41,302 nt of DNA, from IMG/VR virus record IMGVR_UViG_2802429250_000004; one strand, written 5' to 3'. The position numbers and the translations under genes are program-made. Below, one piece after another: positions 32,517 to 39,144 of this stretch. The notes beneath the pieces are model-generated. The model had not been told where the DNA came from. It worked only from the letters and a program-made list of their open reading frames with translations, and searched no databases. Each line of letters begins with the position of its first letter. Within the stretch, counting starts at the first letter, position 1. This DNA comes from a virus. Lineage: Duplodnaviria; Heunggongvirae; Uroviricota; Caudoviricetes.

Positions 32517-33902
32517 ATGGCTACGTGGCAACAGGGTATTAATTCTGGTGGTTTTCTGGCTGGCATCGGTGCGCAAAATGAGAATGCGCCAAAGGCAAGC
32601 GACATTAACGCAACGCTTGGTCTGATCCGCGAAAACAATGAACTGGCTCGCTCAGGTGCAAATAACGTTGGCCTGACCGCGTTACGTGGTCTGGCTGGAG
32701 TTGCTGATATTTACAATCAGGAACAGCAACAGAAAGCTATTAGTGCGTTCAATAAGGTTCACGCTGATGCATGGGCTTCTGGTGATCCATCTGGACTATT
32801 TAAGTTTGCCCAGGAAAATCCAGCGTTTATTGCACAGGCACAACAGGCGTTTTCCGGTCTTAATGATCAGCAACGCAACGATATGGGCGATTTAGCCATG
32901 AGGGCTAACGTCGCTCTTTCTCAGGGACCGGAAGCCTACAGTAAATTCATTACTGACAACAAGGACAGGTTAAATCGCGTTGGTGCTAATGCTGACTGGA
33001 TGATTCAGACAGGTATCCAGAATCCAGAGCAGTTATCACACATGCTGACTACTATGTCTCTCGGTGCGCTTGGACCAGAAAAGGCGTTTGCTGTTCAGGA
33101 TAAGATGGTTGGTCGCCAGCAGGAGCAGCAAAGAATTAACGAAACCATTCGCAATAATGACATGACGAATGCGAGGGCTATTAGGGGGCAAAACCTTTCC
33201 TATCAGTCTGCAATGACCGGACACGGACTTGCAGCAGAAAGACTGGCACTTGATAAGCAGAAATTCGGTTTTGAAGTACAACAGGCACAAAAAAAGGCCG
33301 AGGAACTTATTAATGCAGCGCCAAAATTATCAGTGAACATGGAAAAGGCTATAGAAAAATCAGCAGGTGATGCGGCAGCTAGTCGTAATGCTGCCGATTC
33401 AATGACAACGCTCGCTGACACGCTGGAGAAGGAGAAGCCAACTCCTGGTTTGTTCGGTAACGCTGAAAATATGTTCTCTAAGCTTACGGGGCAAGATAAC
33501 TACCTCCGAGATATGCGGATTAGATTCAACCAACTAGCCAATGCGCAGGCAACCAAGCTTCTCCCTCCCGGCCCTGCATCAGATAAGGATATTGAGTTTG
33601 CAAGGAAAGGCATTCCAAGCGAAACGGATAATCCAATGGTCATGGCTCGATGGTTAAGGGGTATGGCAAAAATGGAAAGTAATAACGCGAAGTTCAACGA
33701 GTTTAGGTCGGAGTGGATGAGTGCAAATGGCAGCCCAGGACAATCTGATCGCAACCGAAACATCATGGGGATGGATGTTAAGAAGGGTGAATCATTGAAC
33801 TCTGCGGCAAAACGTTTTCTTTCCTCAAGTTATGGCGATAGCCAACCTCAACAGCAATTGTCCGATGACGAATTAATTAGCAAATATCTCGGAGGGCAGT
33901 AA
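32517..33902 (+). CDS. gp20: Ejection protein (P22 gp20-like)
   Basis: 461 aa in the conserved position. Confidence 0.8.
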
Positions 33903-35812
33903 TGGCTTATAGTCGTGAACAGTTGATGACAGCATTAAGGAACGCTGATGCGGCAGGCGATACAGAAGGAGCGCGTCGCATTGCTCAGATTCTGTCCTCC
34001 AGTAATCAACCAACTCAAAACCAAAAGCAGCCTGTAGAACAGCAAGATGGATTTATGTCTGACCTCGGCGAAGCAGTAAAAGAAACTGGTCGCGGACTGG
34101 TGCAGGCTGGTGTAAATGTGGCAAATATACCAGCATCAGTTGCCGATGCTGTAACAAGCGCGGCGGCATGGGCTGGCGGTAAACTCGGTATTGGCGATGG
34201 AACATATCAACCAGCGCCACGAGTAACAACTCAGGGATTAGAGCAGGCGTTTGGACTTCAGCAAGGTGCTCTGACTCCACAAACGACAGAAGGTAGGGTG
34301 TTTGCGGAGGCATTGCCTTACCTGGCTACTGTTGGCGTTGGCGGCGCTTCAACTCAGGCGCCAACACTTGCTGGTCGAATTACTCAAGGCGCAGCCCGTC
34401 TTCTGGCAGAAAACGCAGTCGGATCGCTCGCCGCAAACAGTGAGAAAAATGATGCGGGAAAACTGGCAACAGATATAGGTGTTGGCATGCTAACAGGTGG
34501 TGCTGTTAATACTGTTGCAAAAGGGCTTGAGCGTGGAATAACTGCCTTTAAAGGTGATATTGCACCAGAAGTGGCGAAGAAAATTGCCACATCAGAATCG
34601 ATGGGCGTGACACCAATGACATCTGATGTAATCCCGCCGAAAAATGCTTTCACTCGTGGTCTTACTCAGGATGCTGAGGGTGCTTTGCTGGGAACAGGCT
34701 CAAAGCGAGCTGAGCAGTATGCAAAAAGAAGTCAGCTAGTTAAAAAACAGCTTGAGAAATATGGTGAATATAGCCCATCAGTTGTTGTTGACGATCTGTA
34801 TGGTTCTCTGAAGTCAAGGAAGGATTCGGCCGGAAGCGTTATTGAAGACATTACAGCCAAAATGGGAGACACACCAGTTGACACATCAAAATCTATTAAG
34901 GTTATCGACAACGTACTTACCAGAGCTAATAGGCTTGGGAAAGTGGCAAATAAGGATTTGATTCGCGGGTTATCCGATTTGCGAGAAGAACTTGCTAAAC
35001 CAGATATAGATTTTGGTCTATTGAGAGAGTTGCGGTCAGCCTTGAGGGAAAGTATTCAGGGAGATGCCATGGTTTTTCCTAATAGCGCGAAAGCCGCAAC
35101 TGATGCCGTGGAGAGGGCAATGGGGGCAGATTTGAGGAATAACGCAGCGCGGTATTTGGGGGCTGGAGAGGCCGCCAGATACGTCAAAGCAAACTCTGAC
35201 TACTCCAACGTCTTCAATAAGGTTCTTAATAAAAGGATTGCGAATAATCTCAACAAAGCTAAAAAAGAGTTTACTCCAGAGCTAATAAACAGCGTTGTAT
35301 TCAGCAGAAAACCATCAGATATTAAGAGGATATGGCCAGCTCTTAGTGAAGATGGAAAGAACGCTATGCGTGCTGCTTATATCAGCAAGATTGCAGAAAA
35401 AGCAGGAGACTCGCCAACAAAATTTCTTACCGAGTTAAATAAGTTGAAGTCGCAATCTGACGGTCAGATCTATAACACGATATTCAGTGGGAGACACATG
35501 AAAGAGCTTGATGCTCTTCATGAAGTTCTACAGCAAACAGCAAGGTCGGACGCCGCAAATGTAGTAACACAGACAGGACAATCGCAAGCTAACAGGATTA
35601 GAACGATTGGCGCAACTGCAACCCTTGGTGTATCACTGGGACTTGAGGCTGGTTTCGGTGCAATCATGCGCTTGTATGAGTCCAAAGCAGCAAGGAATGC
35701 TCTCTTACGTCTGGCAAACACTAAAGCTGGAACGCCAGCATATGAAAGAGCGCTGAATAACGCTGCGAATGCCATCAGGCCGCTGCTTGCCACTGAGGCA
35801 ACACAGCAGTAA
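33902..35812 (+). CDS. gp16: Ejection protein (P22 gp16-like)
   Basis: 636 aa in the conserved position; Ala/Gly-rich. Confidence 0.8.
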   Translation: MAYSREQLMTALRNADAAGDTEGARRIAQILSSSNQPTQNQKQPVEQQDGFMSDLGEAVKETGRGLVQAGVNVANIPASVADAVTSAAAWAGGKLGIGDGTYQPAPRVTTQGLEQAFGLQQGALTPQTTEGRVFAEALPYLATVGVGGASTQAPTLAGRITQGAARLLAENAVGSLAANSEKNDAGKLATDIGVGMLTGGAVNTVAKGLERGITAFKGDIAPEVAKKIATSESMGVTPMTSDVIPPKNAFTRGLTQDAEGALLGTGSKRAEQYAKRSQLVKKQLEKYGEYSPSVVVDDLYGSLKSRKDSAGSVIEDITAKMGDTPVDTSKSIKVIDNVLTRANRLGKVANKDLIRGLSDLREELAKPDIDFGLLRELRSALRESIQGDAMVFPNSAKAATDAVERAMGADLRNNAARYLGAGEAARYVKANSDYSNVFNKVLNKRIANNLNKAKKEFTPELINSVVFSRKPSDIKRIWPALSEDGKNAMRAAYISKIAEKAGDSPTKFLTELNKLKSQSDGQIYNTIFSGRHMKELDALHEVLQQTARSDAANVVTQTGQSQANRIRTIGATATLGVSLGLEAGFGAIMRLYESKAARNALLRLANTKAGTPAYERALNNAANAIRPLLATEATQQ

Positions 35813-35836
35813 CGTATTGGAAATTGGATTCAATCG

Positions 35837-36226
35837 CTAACATTTTCTTTTTACTTTTCCAACAAAAGCTTTGGTTGAATCCATATTTCCATAACCGGAA
35901 ATGGTTTTTGACATTAAAACTGTTCCAGTAGGATGTATTACCCATGAGTCGATAACGCGTTGAGTTTCGCCATTCGCGCCGATTCCTATGATGGAGTTTT
36001 TAGACAATACTTTGTAAGCCATGCCGCCCGCATCTGTCCCAGAATATGTGATGCTAGCATCTTCACCGCTTGTCTTAATGATGAATGTTCCACTAAAACC
36101 ATCTTCTTCCGGATGGAAATTATTTCGTTCTGAATAGCTTATTCCGCGCATATCTCCAACGACCCAGCACTCTGCTGTAGCCCCAAAAGATATGAATAAG
36201 AACATAGCAGCAAGAAATTGCTTCAC
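35837..36226 (-). CDS. Secreted (periplasmic) protein of unknown function, at the P22 sieA position
   Basis: GTG start at 36224-36226 with AAGGAGG 5 nt upstream; N-terminal signal peptide MKQFLAAMFLFISFGATA followed by about 110 mature residues; convergent with gp16. Confidence 0.5.
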   Translation of the reverse strand: MKQFLAAMFLFISFGATAECWVVGDMRGISYSERNNFHPEEDGFSGTFIIKTSGEDASITYSGTDAGGMAYKVLSKNSIIGIGANGETQRVIDSWVIHPTGTVLMSKTISGYGNMDSTKAFVGKVKRKC

Positions 36227-36256
36227 ACCAACCTCCTTAGTTTTGCGCAGGATACC

Positions 36257-36622
36257 ATGAAAAAAGTTAACATTGGAAACGTACCAAAGATGCTCGTACC
36301 GCTCTTTGAGAGCGGTACGATTGTATTTTGCAGAGACTTTCCAGAATGGCAACGCCTGCATCAAAAACTTGGCGTGGACGTGCGGGACTCGGATGCCAAC
36401 GGAGCGTCTCATACAATGAGCAGCGAGAATGGTGTTTTGCATGTGATAGGTGTGTTCAATGGCAAACTATCTACTATTGCCCATGAGTGCGCTCACATGG
36501 CATTCGATATCTGCTCGAGGGTCGGTGTTGATGTTGAACCAGGAAGAGCCAACGAGACTTACTGCTACTTAATGAGCAGGCTTGTTGAGTTCTGCGAGCG
36601 ACATATCAAAAAGCCGGAGTGA
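36257..36622 (+). CDS. Small HExxH-motif protein (putative zinc metallopeptidase-like)
   Basis: 121 aa from ATG 36257; contains IAHECAHMAFD (HExxH) with a downstream Glu; divergent from the secreted protein gene with about a 30-bp gap. Confidence 0.5.
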   Translation: MKKVNIGNVPKMLVPLFESGTIVFCRDFPEWQRLHQKLGVDVRDSDANGASHTMSSENGVLHVIGVFNGKLSTIAHECAHMAFDICSRVGVDVEPGRANETYCYLMSRLVEFCERHIKKPE

Positions 36623-36635
36623 ACCGGCTTGATTA

Positions 36636-36815
36636 TTACTTTTTGCTGTCTGGAGTTCGCTTATCCAATACCCAGCCATGACCTGGCTTTGTTGTTGGCG
36701 GAAGCCTTTCGTTGTCCTTGACGGTGGCAAAATTGTCTTTCTTACCGCCGCGCGGGCCAACTTCTTGGTATATTCCGCCGTTTTTTCCTGTGTTTTCACC
36801 TGGTTTTTTCGCCAT
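36636..36815 (-). CDS. YjzC-like small protein
   Basis: 59 aa MAKKPGENTGKNGGIYQEVGPRGGKKDNFATVKDNERLPPTTKPGHGWVLDKRTP… with a G-x-Y-x-E-x-G … W pattern reminiscent of the YjzC family; GAGGT RBS. Confidence 0.45.
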   Translation of the reverse strand: MAKKPGENTGKNGGIYQEVGPRGGKKDNFATVKDNERLPPTTKPGHGWVLDKRTPDSKK

Positions 36816-36905
36816 GATATACCTCAACATGCACCCGTTATTGGGCGATTAAATATTGATCTCATTTTATGAGTAGTCAATATGGTCCAAAAAAGGCAAA
36901 AATTA

Positions 36906-36928
36906 ACCCACCTTCAGGTGGGTTTTTT
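36906..36928. terminator. Bidirectional intrinsic terminator
   Basis: Perfect 7-bp stem ACCCACC/GGTGGGT with loop TTCA, flanked by T-runs on both strands; about 30 nt past the ClpP-like stop. Confidence 0.5.
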
Positions 36929-36953
36929 ATAAGGAGTAATCATGATTTACCCA

Positions 36954-37490
36954 TCAAACAACCCACCAGTTTGCCTGATTGGATACCAGCCTTGCAGTTT
37001 TTATGGAATTAATTATGCCATGCTCAAGAGCCTTGTTAGCATCCAAAATGGTCGAGTCTGCTATCAGGGATGCCCACCTAATATGGGTTCCGATGTCGAT
37101 ATTGAACGTCTCAACGAAGCGATCAAGATCGTTATCGAGGCATTTCCCGTACTCTCTCAATCTGGCATGGTCGGCGGCTGGGGTGGCAAAGCCCCATAAT
37201 AGAGGATGTAACAGGAATCTTGATAATGGGTTTGCGAAACGTTCTGAGCCAGCGAGGAAAACGATATTAGCTATGGATTCAATATTGCTTATGTTGTGAG
37301 TTCTAACGGTAACAGGGAGTGACTTAAGAAAGTTATACGCAGTAAAGCCAGCGGCAGTTTCCCCTCCCTGACTTGATATATGGATATTTAATTCAGTTGC
37401 GCCTTGAGATAATGCGGTGAGACAGTGGTTCTGAAGTTGCCCAACAGTGGCAGTATTAACGGGGCATAAGAAATGAATTGTGTGCAGCAT
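36954..37490 (-). CDS. ClpP-family serine peptidase-like protein, translationally coupled to mnt
   Basis: 178 aa; aligns by eye along most of ClpP: …ISSQGGETAAGFTAYNFL… (ClpP INSPGGVITAGMSIYDTM), …ESIANIVFLAGSERFANPLSRFLLHP… (ClpP …[30 protein letters not shown]) and …ADSTILDANKALEHGIINSI (ClpP …DRFLSAPEAVEYGLVDSI); Ser/His/Asp candidates present; its ATG overlaps the mnt stop (TAATG). Confidence 0.65.
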   Translation of the reverse strand: MLHTIHFLCPVNTATVGQLQNHCLTALSQGATELNIHISSQGGETAAGFTAYNFLKSLPVTVRTHNISNIESIANIVFLAGSERFANPLSRFLLHPLLWGFATPAADHARLREYGKCLDNDLDRFVETFNIDIGTHIRWASLIADSTILDANKALEHGIINSIKTARLVSNQANWWVV

Positions 37491-37741
37491 TATTTTTCAT
37501 CCTTACCATACATGGTCTTTAGCGTCTCAACATCATGTTCAAGATCTATCAATCGTGATGCTATAGTTGCAAGGTCTAGTGCTTGAATGTGTTTATTTTT
37601 TTCGGTCCATGCTTCAAGTGCCGCGACCATCTCAGCATTTAATGAACGAGAATTAGCCTCAGCCAGTTCAATAAGACGTTCCTTTATCTCTACAGGAAGC
37701 CTCAGATTCACTTGAGGGTTTTTGTACTTACGATCAGACAT
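37490..37741 (-). CDS. mnt: Mnt-like ribbon-helix-helix repressor
   Basis: 83 aa from ATG 37739-37741 (same length as P22 Mnt); N-terminal RHH …VNLRLPVEIKERLIELAEANSRSLNAEMVAAL… parallels P22 Mnt (…FNFRMPMEVREKLKFRAEANGRSMNSELLQIV…); divergent from arc. Confidence 0.7.
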   Translation of the reverse strand: MSDRKYKNPQVNLRLPVEIKERLIELAEANSRSLNAEMVAALEAWTEKNKHIQALDLATIASRLIDLEHDVETLKTMYGKDEK

Positions 37742-37846
37742 CGGCACATCCTGAATAATTTTTTACCACAGGATATGTAGGTATCTATTGACTATCAATG
37801 CGTACCTAAATACTATGTATGCGTACCACATACAACGGAGGATGCA
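37742..37846. promoter_or_regulatory. immI control region (divergent Pmnt/Pant with operator candidates)
   Basis: Intergenic region between divergent mnt and arc containing the palindrome ATTGACTATCAAT and a duplicated ATGCGTACC element. Confidence 0.4.
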
Positions 37847-37987
37847 ATGAAGGTAAAAACACTGCGTATGCCAGAGAAGTTAGAAAAAATCCTTGAAGAG
37901 AAAGCAAAGGAAGAGTGTCGCTCATTTAGCGCAGAAGTAATTAAACGAGTGTTGGACAGTCTGAAGAGGGAGGGGATAACGGTGTGA
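37847..37987 (+). CDS. arc: Arc-like ribbon-helix-helix repressor
   Basis: 46 aa MKVKTLRMPEKLEKILEEKAKEECRSFSAEVIKRVLDSLKREGITV, paralleling P22 Arc (…FNLRWPREVLDLVRKVAEENGRSVNSEIYQRVMESFKKEGRI…); GGAGG RBS. Confidence 0.7.
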   Translation: MKVKTLRMPEKLEKILEEKAKEECRSFSAEVIKRVLDSLKREGITV

Positions 37988-38220
37988 TTCGCTTGGATGC
38001 AGTAGTCAAAGAGATTGCGATTACCATTTTAAGACCAAATTTTGTTCATGGCGAATCATTTGGCACGAACGAAAAATTGAGAAGAGAAAGAGTATTCAGT
38101 GGCAAGCGCACGTTTTCAGAAGTGATGCTTGATGCAGCAAAGAAATCAAAACAGTGAAGCCCCAACTGCGGCAACAGTCAGGGCTTCGGTATCGTAAAAC
38201 CACGCATAGGAATTAACGAC

Positions 38221-39144
38221 ATGAAAAGTATAGCAACAGCAGTATCTACTATCAATGTACCATTCCACGGCGCAGAGCTTTATGTTGTCAATCACAACGG
38301 CGAACCGTATACCCCAATGAAACCTATCGTTGAGGGAATGGGTATGGATTGGGCTTCACAGTTTACAAAGTTAAAACAAAGATTTGCTAAAGGTATTGTG
38401 GAAATCGCAATACCTTCAGTTGGCGGTGTGCAGACCATGATTTGCCTTGCTTTACGTAAACTGAATGGCTGGCTGCAAACCATCAGTCCAAACAAAGTAC
38501 GCCCTGAAATCCGCGACAAGGTAATCCAGTATCAGGAAGAGTGTGACGATGTGCTATACGAGTACTGGACTAAAGGTCATGTAGTTAACCCACGCAAAGC
38601 TAAAAAGGCGTTGCCGGGTAAAATCACCACTGAACAGCAGGAAGCCATTAAACAACTCGTCATGAGTCGCGGTCAGTCTCTGCCAAAAGAAAAACAGGCG
38701 AAGGCGATGATCACCATGTGGTCGTCACTGAAATCCCATTTTGGATGTTCGTACAAAGAAATCAGTGAGGAGCAGTTTACCGAAGCACTGTCACTTGCTG
38801 CTCGCGTTCCGCTTGAAGGAGAGTTCATCGGCAAACAAGATAAGAAAACCAACGAGCTTTCTGCAAAAGAAGCAAACAGTCTTGTATGGTTATGGGATTA
38901 TGCCAACCGCTCACAGGCATTATTCCGCGAATTGTATCCGGCGCTAAAACAAATTCAATCGAACTATTCCGGCAGATGCTACGACTATGGTCATGAGTTC
39001 TCGTATGTTATCGGAATGGCGAGAGACGTTTTAATCAATCACACACGAGATGTTGATATCAATGAGCCAGACGGACCAACGAATCTTTCCGCATGGATGA
39101 GACTTAAGAATAAAGAATTACCTCCTTCAATACATAACTACTGA
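38221..39144 (+). CDS. ant: Antirepressor (AntA-domain)
   Basis: 307 aa; N-terminal …[39 protein letters not shown]… typical of the AntA/AntB antirepressor N-terminal domain; downstream of arc as in P22 immI. Confidence 0.7.

What the first reader, a model, noticed from the sequence alone, without database searches (positions are those of the whole stretch)
35837..36815. Three-gene cargo block replacing P22 sieA between gp16 and mnt
Where P22 encodes sieA, this genome has three small genes of unknown function: a signal-peptide periplasmic protein on the minus strand, a divergently transcribed 121-aa HExxH-motif protein only about 30 bp away, and a YjzC-like 59-aa protein with its own RBS. This slot is a known variable moron position in P22-like phages and none of the three is needed for virion assembly. 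A HExxH protein beside a secreted protein could be an exclusion or lysogenic-conversion module.
Basis: partly seen in the sequence, partly recalled or inferred. Interest (0 to 1): 0.6.

Follow-up and report, generated by a model that had tools for sequence, protein, structure and literature searches.

The report
Hex-like exclusion gene in sieA slot
Only one of the three genes really replaces P22 sieA: it encodes a secreted beta-barrel protein distantly related to the phage 434 Hex protein (genetically tied to exclusion of P22), while the HExxH gene and the small YjzC-like gene are ordinary conserved backbone that P22 itself also carries.

Summary
The three ORFs are real, at the stated coordinates, and under purifying selection. 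The "three-gene block replacing sieA" reading is wrong.

- **HExxH gene and orf59a.** The HExxH gene (HK620 hkcC) and the 59-aa gene (P22 orf59a) lie in DNA about 97% identical to P22 and HK620. P22 has an intact, unannotated hkcC copy.
- **Gene A.** Only the minus-strand gene (35837-36226) replaces sieA. The swap junction is exactly the shared GTG start codon, behind the conserved PsieA region and ribosome-binding site.
- **The slot.** Among 82 hkcC-bearing loci it holds about ten unrelated cassettes. All begin with a signal peptide or membrane helix.
- **What gene A encodes.** A signal peptide (ATA|ECW), an eight-stranded beta-barrel and two conserved terminal cysteines. It is a distant homologue (27% identity, hhalign 98%) of phage 434 Hex / Sf6 gp38. 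Hex was named because a lambda-imm434 lysogen excludes P22 and a hex mutant does not.
- **Best reading of gene A.** A prophage-expressed periplasmic exclusion protein. This is inferred, not shown.
- **hkcC.** It belongs to a large phage family of about 120-aa proteins with invariant H, E and a downstream E (mini-zincin-like). In enterobacterial temperate phages it usually sits convergent with orf59a.

Modest interest: a new member of a known kind.

The parts
35726..35764 (-). Two terminator-like hairpins, inside the 3' end of gene 16, downstream of gene A on the minus strand. Candidate end of the leftward cassette transcript.
   Evidence: Consensus scan only. Function not shown.
35837..36226 (-). 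Gene A, the cassette that occupies the sieA slot. It encodes a 129-aa precursor: signal peptide residues 1-18 (nt 36173-36226), then a 111-aa mature beta-barrel starting E-C-W and ending in Cys129. Hex / Sf6 gp38 family.
36227..36311 (-). Shared leader, ribosome-binding site and the stretch corresponding to the putative PsieA promoter of P22. The P22-annotated PsieA maps to window 36257-36287. It overlaps the first 18 codons of hkcC on the other strand.
   Evidence: P22 annotation. Three-way alignment nearly identical from the CAC start-codon complement rightwards. In P22, 85 bp upstream of sieA sufficed for single-copy exclusion (PMC10883804). Promoter activity here is inferred from conservation.
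36257..36622 (+). Gene B (HK620 hkcC homologue), 121 aa. HECAH is at nt 36482-36496 and the invariant Glu100 at 36554-36556. It has the same orientation as gene 16 and the structural genes.
   Evidence: phrog_1365. One residue different from the unannotated P22 copy. 549 representative clusters in the family. H76, E77 and E100 invariant and H80 in at least 90% of 92 diverse members. AF2 pLDDT 83.6. Third-codon-position polymorphism.
36611..36630 (.). Bidirectional terminator-like hairpin shared by the convergent 3' ends of hkcC and orf59a.
   Evidence: Scan hits on both strands. Annotated as a bidirectional terminator tORF59A in HK620 and as t mnt in P22.
36636..36815 (-). Gene C (P22 orf59a / HK620 hkcD homologue), 59 aa, YjzC-like.
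   Evidence: phrog_3202. Pfam YjzC at 19.4 bits, below the gathering score of 25. 108 homologue clusters, some named YjzC family, with distant ones carrying PF14168. Invariant G6, G14, E18, G20, P21, R22, G23 and P39.
36852..36880 (-). Promoter-like site upstream of orf59a (TTGACT, 17 nt spacer, AATATT).
   Evidence: Consensus scan only. The number of sites in the region is not above shuffle expectation, so this is weak.
36905..36924 (.). Bidirectional terminator-like hairpin separating orf59a from the mnt / ClpP-like operon.
36954..37490 (-). Context, outside the finding. A ClpP-like 178-aa gene whose start overlaps the stop of mnt (37490-37747). It is absent from P22.
   Evidence: Pfam CLP_protease at E 1.6e-11. 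PDB 9uxt (PpClpP1) at E 6e-35. Present in 6 of 82 hkcC loci.

Best explanation
The region is a composite, not one inserted block.

**1. Gene A is a single-gene cassette in the slot where P22 has sieA.**
- The conserved leftward region (putative PsieA), the ribosome-binding site and the GTG start codon are shared by all phages of this group.
- Everything after the start codon is exchangeable.
- Here the cassette encodes a Sec-exported protein, probably cleaved after A-T-A.
- The mature protein would be a soluble eight-stranded beta-barrel of 111 residues, probably closed by a disulfide between its second and last residues.
- It is a distant member of the phage 434 Hex / Sf6 gp38 family.
- I infer that the prophage makes it, that it sits in the periplasm, and that it interferes with infection by incoming P22-like phages.
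- The likeliest step is outer-membrane or periplasmic DNA delivery, that is, the ejection-protein conduit or cell-wall penetration.
- In that sense it would be a soluble functional counterpart of the inner-membrane protein SieA.

**2. Genes B (hkcC) and C (orf59a) are conserved backbone also present in P22 and HK620.**
- They form a convergent pair around a shared bidirectional terminator.
- The pair recurs in several different enterobacterial temperate phage architectures.
- B is a cytoplasmic mini-zincin-like protein (HExxH plus a Glu 20 residues on), oriented with the structural or lysis genes wherever I looked.
- I infer it is a late-expressed metallopeptidase of unknown substrate.
- C is a very conserved YjzC-like 59-residue protein on the opposite strand, flanked by terminator-like hairpins.
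- Whether C is B's partner, substrate or inhibitor is unknown.

**Shown:** gene structure, homologies, the cassette junction, family conservation and the co-occurrence statistics.
**Inferred:** export, the disulfide, expression pattern, the exclusion function and peptidase activity.
For: **Cassette swap**
- Similarity to P22 and HK620 begins at window 36224, the start-codon complement.
- In 82 hkcC loci the ORF starting at that point falls into about ten unrelated types. They are SieA, Hex-like, two hkcB-like types, and proteins of 75, 62, 106, 68, 99 and 149 aa. A further 161-aa type brings its own ATG.
- Every type begins with a hydrophobic signal or membrane segment (sequences).
- Behind the window-type gene 16 end, three different cassettes occur, with only 17-24 nt between the gene 16 stop and the cassette stop.

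**Hex family**
- tblastn gives 26-27% identity over the full length.
- hhalign gives probability 98.15% and E 6e-14.
- The shared invariants include C20, W21 and C129.
- Both proteins have a hydrophobic N-terminus, small residues at -3/-1 and a hydrophilic mature part.
- The AF2 barrel starts at residue 19, and residues 1-18 have low confidence.

**Function lead**
- PMC3564112 reports that a lambda-imm434 lysogen of S. Typhimurium excludes P22 and a hex mutant does not.
- The stable Hex fragment in that paper starts at E43 of the 158-aa ORF. That is exactly the residue after A-N-S in the 134-aa form.
- Slot precedent: SieA is prophage-expressed and blocks DNA injection (PMC10883804).

**B and C**
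- P22 carries both genes.
- B family: 549 clusters, with invariant H76, E77 and E100.
- The only sub-threshold PDB profile hits that align on the HExxH helix are metallopeptidases.
- Two of 92 relatives hit Pfam SprT-like.
- BFVD matches are small phage proteins, a few of them named SprT-like or metalloprotease.
- B and C are convergent in Klebsiella, Rosenbergiella, two metagenomic sets, Morganella, Xenorhabdus and Proteus.
- B and C are also adjacent in 71 of 82 P22-like loci.
Against: - There is no experimental or expression data for this phage.
- Identity to Hex is only 27%.
- The mechanism of Hex exclusion is unknown. The only biochemical study assigns Hex a cytoplasmic role, inhibition of RecA-stimulated repressor cleavage (PMC3564112).
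- The signal peptide was judged by hydropathy and the -3/-1 rule, not by a trained predictor.
- The disulfide and the closed barrel could not be measured on the model.
- Promoter assignment rests on conservation with P22. The consensus scan is not above shuffle expectation.
- The B-C pairing is not universal.
  - Only 2 of 55 species-level C loci have B next door.
  - 11 of 82 P22-like loci have B without C.
  - One B homologue lies beside an integrase without C.
Confidence: 0.6

Rival explanations
1. The three genes are one cargo module that replaced sieA, and the HExxH protein works together with the secreted protein as an exclusion or conversion system.
For: The starts of A and B are only 30 nt apart and divergent. 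All three genes lie between gene 16 and mnt.
Against: B and C are present, about 97% identical, next to sieA in P22 and next to hkcB in HK620. The same B sits beside about ten different cassettes. In vB_SemP_Emek, similarity to the window stops about 31 nt past gene A's start and the annotated neighbours are different proteins, so A occurs there without B and C. B has no signal peptide, so the two proteins would be in different compartments.
Confidence: 0.04
2. Gene A acts like published 434 Hex. It would be a cytoplasmic factor that stabilises lysogeny by blocking RecA-stimulated autocleavage of the prophage repressor, rather than an envelope exclusion protein.
For: PMC3564112 reports three things. 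A hex mutation raises spontaneous induction in a recA-dependent way. A 61-residue Hex fragment inhibits cleavage of the 434 and P22 repressors in vitro. Gene A is a Hex homologue.
Against: - Both proteins have a signal-peptide-like N-terminus and a conserved N- and C-terminal Cys pair, typical of exported proteins.
- The active fragment in that paper was a cytoplasmically expressed piece of a barrel.
- Here the gene is uncoupled from the repressor gene and sits in an exclusion slot whose other cassettes are all envelope proteins.
- Canonical Hex directly follows 434-type cI in 80 of 80 loci. That linkage is absent here.
Confidence: 0.12
3. Gene A is a lysogenic-conversion factor for the host rather than a phage-exclusion protein. 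It could be a periplasmic binding or inhibitor barrel, for example against lysozyme or another envelope stress.
Against: The only homologue with a phenotype is tied genetically to phage exclusion. The only characterised occupant of the slot is an exclusion protein. No specific similarity to a known inhibitor family was found: no Pfam, NCBIfam or PADLOC hit and no PDB sequence hit.
Confidence: 0.15
4. The B-C adjacency is only hitch-hiking of two independent morons on one mobile DNA segment. B and C have unrelated functions.
For: C occurs alone in 53 of 55 species-level loci. B occurs without C in 11 of 82 P22-like loci and beside an integrase in a metagenomic contig. The two genes are on opposite strands with separate signals.
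Against: The convergent arrangement, with the stop codons a dozen or so nt apart, persists while B diverges to 43-60% identity. It also persists across different backbones: P22-like, siphovirus tail operons, and beside a lysis cassette.
Confidence: 0.35

Closest known systems
Phage 434 Hex ('heterologous exclusion') / Shigella phage Sf6 gp38 / HK446 and HK633 homologues
   Same: - Homologous over the full length (hhalign 98%, E 6e-14).
- Same size.
- Same signal-like N-terminus ending in small-x-small|ECW.
- Same C-terminal FVGxV...C with a conserved Cys pair.
- Carried by temperate enterobacterial phages in a position expressed from the prophage.
   Different: - Only 26-28% identical.
- Hex immediately follows the 434-type cI gene in the PRM operon (80 of 80 loci). 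Gene A sits after gene 16 behind the PsieA region.
- Exclusion of P22, and any effect on repressor cleavage, are untested for gene A.
P22 SieA (superinfection exclusion A)
   Same: Same genomic slot, same strand, same upstream region, ribosome-binding site and GTG start codon. An envelope-targeted product. An expected prophage-expressed exclusion role.
   Different: No sequence relationship. SieA is a 164-aa multi-pass inner-membrane protein with the motif FxRYPxEAxxFNK. Gene A encodes a soluble secreted barrel with no membrane helix in the mature part.
HK620 hkcC / unannotated P22 ORF between sieA and orf59a (phrog_1365)
   Same: Gene B is this gene: 98-99% identical protein, same position, same orientation.
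   Different: Nothing material. No function has been assigned to any member.
Zincin metallopeptidases (gluzincin-type HExxH...E; SprT-like mini-proteases)
   Same: - HExxH on a long helix preceded by a beta-sheet.
- An invariant Glu 20 residues after the second His, in an N-E motif on the next helix.
- A few relatives are recognised as SprT-like.
   Different: - Only 121 residues.
- No significant sequence or fold match to any solved peptidase.
- SprT/Wss1-type enzymes use a third His rather than Glu.
- Activity is untested.
P22 orf59a / Pfam PF14168 YjzC-like
   Same: Gene C is orf59a (98% identical). It shares the GxYxEVGPRGG core with proteins that sources name YjzC family.
   Different: It scores below the Pfam threshold. 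The family has no known function.

Membership tests
434 Hex / Sf6 gp38 family (gene A) | Sequence homology across the whole protein | tested here: met
   tblastn at 26-27% identity and 100% coverage, E 9e-5 to 1e-3. Profile-sequence hhalign probability 98.15%, E 6.3e-14, 128 aligned columns. Twenty-four invariant columns in a six-sequence alignment.
434 Hex / Sf6 gp38 family (gene A) | N-terminal export signal ending small-x-small before E-C-W, plus a C-terminal Cys | tested here: met
   A-T-A|ECW here against A-N-S|ECW in Hex. Cys at 20 and 129 here, 20 and 132 in Hex. Actual cleavage is not testable here. The reported N-terminus of the stable Hex fragment (E43 of the 158-aa ORF) coincides with this site.
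434 Hex / Sf6 gp38 family (gene A) | Location directly downstream of a 434-type cI in the PRM operon | tested here: not met
   Canonical Hex directly follows cI in 80 of 80 loci. Gene A lies after gene 16. This is a feature of the canonical subfamily's context, not of the protein.
434 Hex / Sf6 gp38 family (gene A) | Exclusion of superinfecting P22 by the lysogen | not testable with these tools
   Known only for lambda-imm434 in Salmonella (PMC3564112, citing Susskind and Botstein 1980).
SieA (gene A) | Multi-pass inner-membrane protein related to SieA types A-C, with the motif FxRYPxEAxxFNK | tested here: not met
   No similarity to P22 SieA beyond the start codon. The most hydrophobic 19-residue window of the mature protein scores 0.77, so no membrane helix. 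The motif described in PMC10883804 is absent from the sequence.
Moron in the PsieA slot (gene A) | Exchangeable gene between conserved flanks, with its own promoter and terminator, opposite to the structural genes | tested here: met
   Sharp junctions at the GTG and 17-24 nt after the gene 16 stop. About ten alternative cassettes. The promoter region is conserved with P22. Terminator-like hairpins were found by scan only. Transcription was not tested.
Zincin / gluzincin metallopeptidase (gene B) | Conserved HExxH | tested here: met
   H76 and E77 are invariant, and H80 is present in at least 90% of 92 diverse members.
Zincin / gluzincin metallopeptidase (gene B) | Third metal ligand (Glu) about 20 residues downstream on the next helix | tested here: inconclusive
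   E100 is invariant and lies at the start of predicted helix 100-117. Its position relative to H76 and H80 could not be measured.
Zincin / gluzincin metallopeptidase (gene B) | Significant sequence or fold match to a characterised peptidase family | tested here: not met
Pfam PF14168 YjzC-like (gene C) | Score at or above the gathering threshold | tested here: not met
   19.4 bits against a cut-off of 25. However, homologues at 47-60% identity carry PF14168, and UniRef names closer ones YjzC family. This points to a related subfamily.
Known anti-phage defence systems (all three genes) | Match to a PADLOC model | tested here: not met
   No hit at E up to 0.1 for A, B, C or the ClpP-like protein.

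The most novel reading that the evidence does not exclude
- The PsieA slot would be a plug-in library of at least ten unrelated envelope proteins. Each would be a distinct superinfection-exclusion device.
- Hex-family barrels, including classical 434 Hex, would be periplasmic blockers of podovirus DNA delivery rather than cytoplasmic RecA modulators.
- Separately, hkcC and orf59a would form a two-part system: a late-expressed mini-metalloprotease and a prophage-expressed small protein that is its substrate or inhibitor. That would be a new phage defence or counter-defence module, present even in P22.
Probability: 0.15. Interest if true: 0.7.

Novelty: new member of a known kind. Interest (0 to 1): 0.4.

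Why it matters
- The 2024 SieA study reports sieA in only 22 of 66 P22-like phages and does not say what the others carry in that slot.
- This analysis shows the slot is a start-codon-fused cassette site holding about ten kinds of envelope protein. One kind is related to Hex, which is tied genetically to exclusion of P22 but has no known exclusion mechanism.
- That yields a cheap, direct experiment using the same single-copy assay already used for sieA.
- It also raises the possibility that Hex itself is exported, which would call for a second look at its published cytoplasmic role.
- The HExxH and YjzC-like pair is of interest mainly because it sits unannotated or uncharacterised in P22, one of the best-studied phages, and belongs to a large phage protein family.

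Tried and rejected
- **Defence-system and curated family libraries.** PADLOC gave nothing for any gene. NCBIfam gave only noise for A, B and C.
- **Solved structures by sequence.** Nothing for B with the narrow profile. Only sub-threshold hits with the wide profile. Nothing meaningful for A or C.
- **Foldseek against AFDB50.** The library was not available.
- **The search for related loci with the 92-sequence B alignment.** The narrow alignment returned only 99%-identical copies. These were useful for the cassette census but not for distant context.
- **Literature.** The search for 'hkcC' returned only unrelated acronyms. The search for 'orf59a' found no functional study.
- **Lipoprotein reading of gene A.** Rejected: Glu at position -1 before the Cys does not fit a lipobox.
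- **B as an ORF artefact antisense to the sieA leader.** Rejected on third-position polymorphism and a 549-cluster family.
- **My own errors.** Two scripts used a coordinate for hkcC that was off by one. They were corrected.
Full report
**Context**

The window is a P22-like (Lederbergvirus) genome of the E. coli / Salmonella group. Its structural half is closest to IME10, HZ41, APC_JM3.2 and vB_SemP_Emek. The gene order after gene 16 (33902-35812, +) is as follows:

| Feature | Coordinates | Strand |
|---|---|---|
| Gene A | 35837-36226 | - |
| Gene B | 36257-36622 | + |
| Gene C | 36636-36815 | - |
| ClpP-like gene | 36954-37490 | - |
| mnt | 37490-37747 | - |
| arc | 37847-37987 | + |
| 57-aa ORF | 37984-38157 | + |
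| sar RNA | 38153-38219 | - |
| ant | 38221-39144 | + |

Yes for the three ORFs.
- A starts at a GTG five nt after AAGGAGG. Its N-terminus is MKQFLAAMFLFISFGATA|ECW.
- B is 121 aa with HECAH at residues 76-80.
- C is 59 aa and is preceded by GAGG.
- Each belongs to a PHROG family of unknown function: 2651, 1365 and 3202.
- B is clearly coding. Among 37 distinct DNA variants from 82 loci, polymorphic sites by codon position are 2/1/28. There are 27 synonymous-only codons against 2 with amino-acid change, and no copy is disrupted.
- C shows 49 synonymous against 13 non-synonymous codon differences.
- The 201-aa ORF that a mechanical scan lists for A is an artefact. Its upstream part is the antisense of B.

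**Does the block replace sieA?**

No.
- A megablast of 35700-37600 shows that window 36224-36928 is 96.6% identical to P22 and HK620.
- P22 annotation has sieA, a PsieA promoter, a terminator, orf59a and mnt.
- HK620 has hkcB, hkcC, a bidirectional terminator and hkcD.
- P22 carries an intact, unannotated 121-codon copy of B that differs by one residue. It also carries orf59a.
- So B and C are conserved backbone, and only A differs from P22.

**The junction and the slot**

- A three-way alignment shows the window, P22 and HK620 are unrelated to the left of CAC, the complement of the GTG start. From there rightwards they are nearly identical.
- I fetched 80 IMG/VR loci whose hkcC is about 99% identical and read the minus-strand ORF that starts at that GTG. 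With the P22 and HK620 loci this makes 82.
- The ORF falls into unrelated classes, listed below with their locus counts.

| Cassette | Loci |
|---|---|
| SieA, 164 aa | 14 |
| Hex-like, 129 aa | 12 |
| Two hkcB-like types (membrane helix plus coiled coil), 109 aa | 13 |
| 75 aa | 8 |
| 106 aa | 5 |
| 62 aa | 4 |
| 68 aa | 2 |
| 99 aa | 2 |
| 149 aa | 2 |
| About 161 aa, with its own ATG and ribosome-binding site | 18 |

- Every class begins with a signal peptide or membrane helix (sequences).
- Behind the window-type 3' end of gene 16 I found three different cassettes, with only 17-24 nt between the gene 16 stop and the cassette stop.
- This is therefore a two-sided, sharply bounded cassette site whose promoter region, ribosome-binding site and start codon are shared.
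- The SieA paper reports that only 22 of 66 P22-like phages have sieA. It shows that 85 bp upstream of sieA suffices for exclusion in single copy. It does not describe what the other phages carry there (PMC10883804).

**What gene A is**

- It has no Pfam, NCBIfam or PADLOC hit.
- Homologues are few and enterobacterial: 22 clusters.
- At DNA level the gene is in phages ST-35 and vB_SemP_Emek only, out of 50,697 phage records.
- It is in 147 of 5426 complete E. coli genomes.
- tblastn finds full-length matches at 26-27% identity to a gene next to the repressor of phages 434, Sf6 (gp38), HK446 and HK633. In phage 434 records this gene is annotated 'repressor protection protein'.
- That gene is hex. 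A profile of the A family aligns to 434 Hex with probability 98.15% and E 6.3e-14.
- The joint alignment keeps C20, W21, V23, G28, W95, the FVGxV motif and the last Cys.
- Both proteins have a hydrophobic N-terminus, small residues at -3 and -1, and Glu-Cys-Trp at +1 to +3. Both have a hydrophilic mature part without a membrane helix, and exactly two cysteines, near the mature N-terminus and at or near the C-terminus.
- The AF2 model (pLDDT 86) is all-beta from residue 19, with low confidence for residues 1-18.

**What is known about Hex**

- PMC3564112 states that a lambda-imm434 lysogen of S. Typhimurium excludes P22 and a hex mutant does not. Hence the name 'heterologous exclusion'.
- The same paper proposes a cytoplasmic role, inhibition of RecA-stimulated cleavage of the 434 and P22 repressors. 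This rests on a 6-kDa fragment running from E43 to N103 of a 158-residue ORF.
- I translated that ORF. It is the 134-residue protein plus 24 upstream codons that overlap cI.
- E43 is exactly the residue after A-N-S, the predicted signal-peptidase site.
- The paper never mentions a signal peptide.
- This coincidence fits export of Hex-family proteins. It does not prove it.
- Canonical Hex directly follows a 434-type cI in 80 of 80 viral loci, so gene A is a divergent subfamily in a different prophage-expressed slot.

**Mechanism proposed for A (inferred)**

1. Transcription from the conserved PsieA region in the lysogen.
2. Sec export and cleavage after Ala18.
3. A disulfide between Cys20 and Cys129 closing the barrel.
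4. A soluble periplasmic protein that interferes with DNA delivery by incoming P22-like phages.

It would be a functional counterpart of membrane-bound SieA, which blocks injection and is escaped by changes in gp16 and gp20 (abstract of PMC10883804).

**What gene B is**

- It has no Pfam hit.
- An exhaustive profile search finds 549 representative clusters at E up to 1e-3, and 153 at E up to 1e-10. Nearly all are stand-alone proteins of 110-140 aa.
- In 92 diverse members H76, E77 and E100 are invariant, and H80, P15, G49 and Y104 are kept in at least 90%.
- This is the HExxH plus Glu spacing of gluzincin-type peptidases (from general knowledge of the family).
- The AF2 model (pLDDT 83.6) has a small sheet, a helix carrying HExxH (74-88) and a helix starting at E100.
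- Support for a peptidase fold is weak.
  - PDB profile hits have E 0.16-0.7. Those that align on the HExxH helix are metallopeptidases.
  - Two of 92 relatives hit SprT-like.
  - BFVD matches are small uncharacterised phage proteins from many lineages, a few named SprT-like or metalloprotease.
- B has no signal peptide or membrane helix.

**What gene C is, and its link to B**

- C is P22 orf59a. It has 108 homologue clusters, some named YjzC family by UniRef, and the distant ones carry PF14168.
- It is unusually conserved: 65-80% identity across alpha-, beta- and gammaproteobacterial genomes.
- In every enterobacterial context I opened, a B homologue and a C homologue are convergent, with the stop codons a dozen or so nt apart. 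The contexts are:
  - Klebsiella oxytoca, Rosenbergiella and JGI siphovirus-type prophages, between the tail-assembly genes and the tape measure;
  - a Logan metagenome set in which B is only 43% identical;
  - Morganella P22-like prophages;
  - Xenorhabdus, beside a lysis cassette;
  - Proteus.
  
  These were confirmed by local hmmsearch.
- In each longer prophage context B has the orientation of the neighbouring structural or lysis genes, and C the opposite.
- The link is not universal.
  - Only 2 of 55 species-level C loci have B.
  - 11 of 82 P22-like loci have B without C.
  - One B homologue lies between a Sequestin-domain gene and an integrase.
- So B plus C is a compact module of enterobacterial temperate phages. 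Functional coupling is plausible but unproven.
- No paper in the library addresses either gene functionally.

**Expression logic (inferred)**

- B is co-oriented with gene 16 and has only 30 nt of conserved DNA upstream. A dedicated promoter would therefore have to lie inside the variable cassette.
- Read-through from the late operon is the simplest source of its transcript.
- From general knowledge of P22, late transcription continues through this region to gene 9.
- A strong terminator-like hairpin on the plus strand inside B's 5' end (36294-36320) might restrict B to antiterminated late transcripts.
- A, C and the mnt / ClpP-like operon are leftward. Each has terminator-like hairpins downstream.

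**Verdict**

- The real finding is smaller and more specific. A Hex-family secreted barrel occupies the sieA cassette site, next to two conserved genes that P22 also has.
- None of this is categorically new. The slot, the Hex family, hkcC and orf59a are all on record, and the Emek annotators had already noted the similarity of orf129 to Sf6 gp38.
- Three points appear not to have been stated:
  - the link from this cassette to Hex and its P22-exclusion phenotype;
  - the start-codon-exact cassette architecture with about ten envelope-protein alternatives;
  - the likely export of Hex-family proteins.
- All are directly testable.

Noticed in passing
window 36954-37490 (-), with mnt at 37490-37747 (-): A 178-aa ClpP-like gene overlaps the stop of mnt, so it is probably co-transcribed from Pmnt in the lysogen. 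It is absent from P22 and present in 6 of 82 hkcC loci and in phage phiv205-1, where it is mis-annotated as a head maturation protease. Its closest solved relative is PpClpP1 (PDB 9uxt, E 6e-35), an N-terminally truncated ClpP paralog with low activity that forms mixed rings with the canonical ClpP (PMC12900304). A prophage-expressed ClpP subunit that could join the host ClpP is arguably more intriguing than the three genes of the finding.
   Followed up: partly
window 36816-36953 and the equivalent interval in L015-L094: The interval between orf59a and mnt is a second variable slot. It measures about 100 bp in P22-type loci and up to 2.5 kb elsewhere. Contents include the ClpP-like gene, an XhlA-family gene plus a 69-aa ORF (E. 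coli strain 165, L160), and Emek orf61, orf69 and orf77.
   Followed up: partly
L005 1429-1905 (phage 434 hex): The published stable, active Hex fragment begins at E43 of the 158-aa ORF. That is exactly the residue after the predicted signal-peptidase site A-N-S|E-C-W of the 134-aa form. The paper does not consider export. If Hex is periplasmic, its proposed direct action on RecA-stimulated repressor cleavage needs re-examination.
   Followed up: partly
window 36294-36320 (+): A 12-bp-stem terminator-like hairpin followed by a T-rich tail lies inside codons 13-22 of hkcC, on the sense strand, just beyond the PsieA region. The stem is shorter in P22 and HK620. It might limit hkcC expression to antiterminated late transcripts.
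   Followed up: no
L105-L159 (genome-contig loci): The YjzC-like orf59a family is 65-80% identical between Proteus, Maricaulis, Psychrobacter, Azospirillum, Sphingopyxis, Pseudomonas and others. That is unusually high for a 59-residue protein of unknown function. It suggests either a very conserved target or frequent horizontal transfer. The neighbourhoods of these loci were not examined.
   Followed up: no
L095 147-1192; L101 3206-6183: A distant hkcC-family gene sits directly after a Sequestin-domain gene and before an integrase (L095). In a Xenorhabdus prophage the hkcC/orf59a pair is about 2 kb from a Tad2-like gene (L101). This is an anecdotal association with anti-defence genes.
   Followed up: no
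window 37984-38157 (+) and 38153-38219 (-): A 57-aa ORF lies between arc and ant. It has counterparts in phiv205-1 and possibly in Emek orf73, and is absent from the P22 annotation. Its 3' end overlaps the sar antisense RNA (Rfam RF00262, 75.6 bits).
   Followed up: no
P0012 (E. coli, 642 member sequences): A common E. coli variant of gene A has a different C-terminus after residue about 112 (…GYRRVKSPNAGTNQHW…) and lacks the terminal Cys. This suggests a frameshifted or recombined, possibly inactive, allele that is widespread.
   Followed up: no
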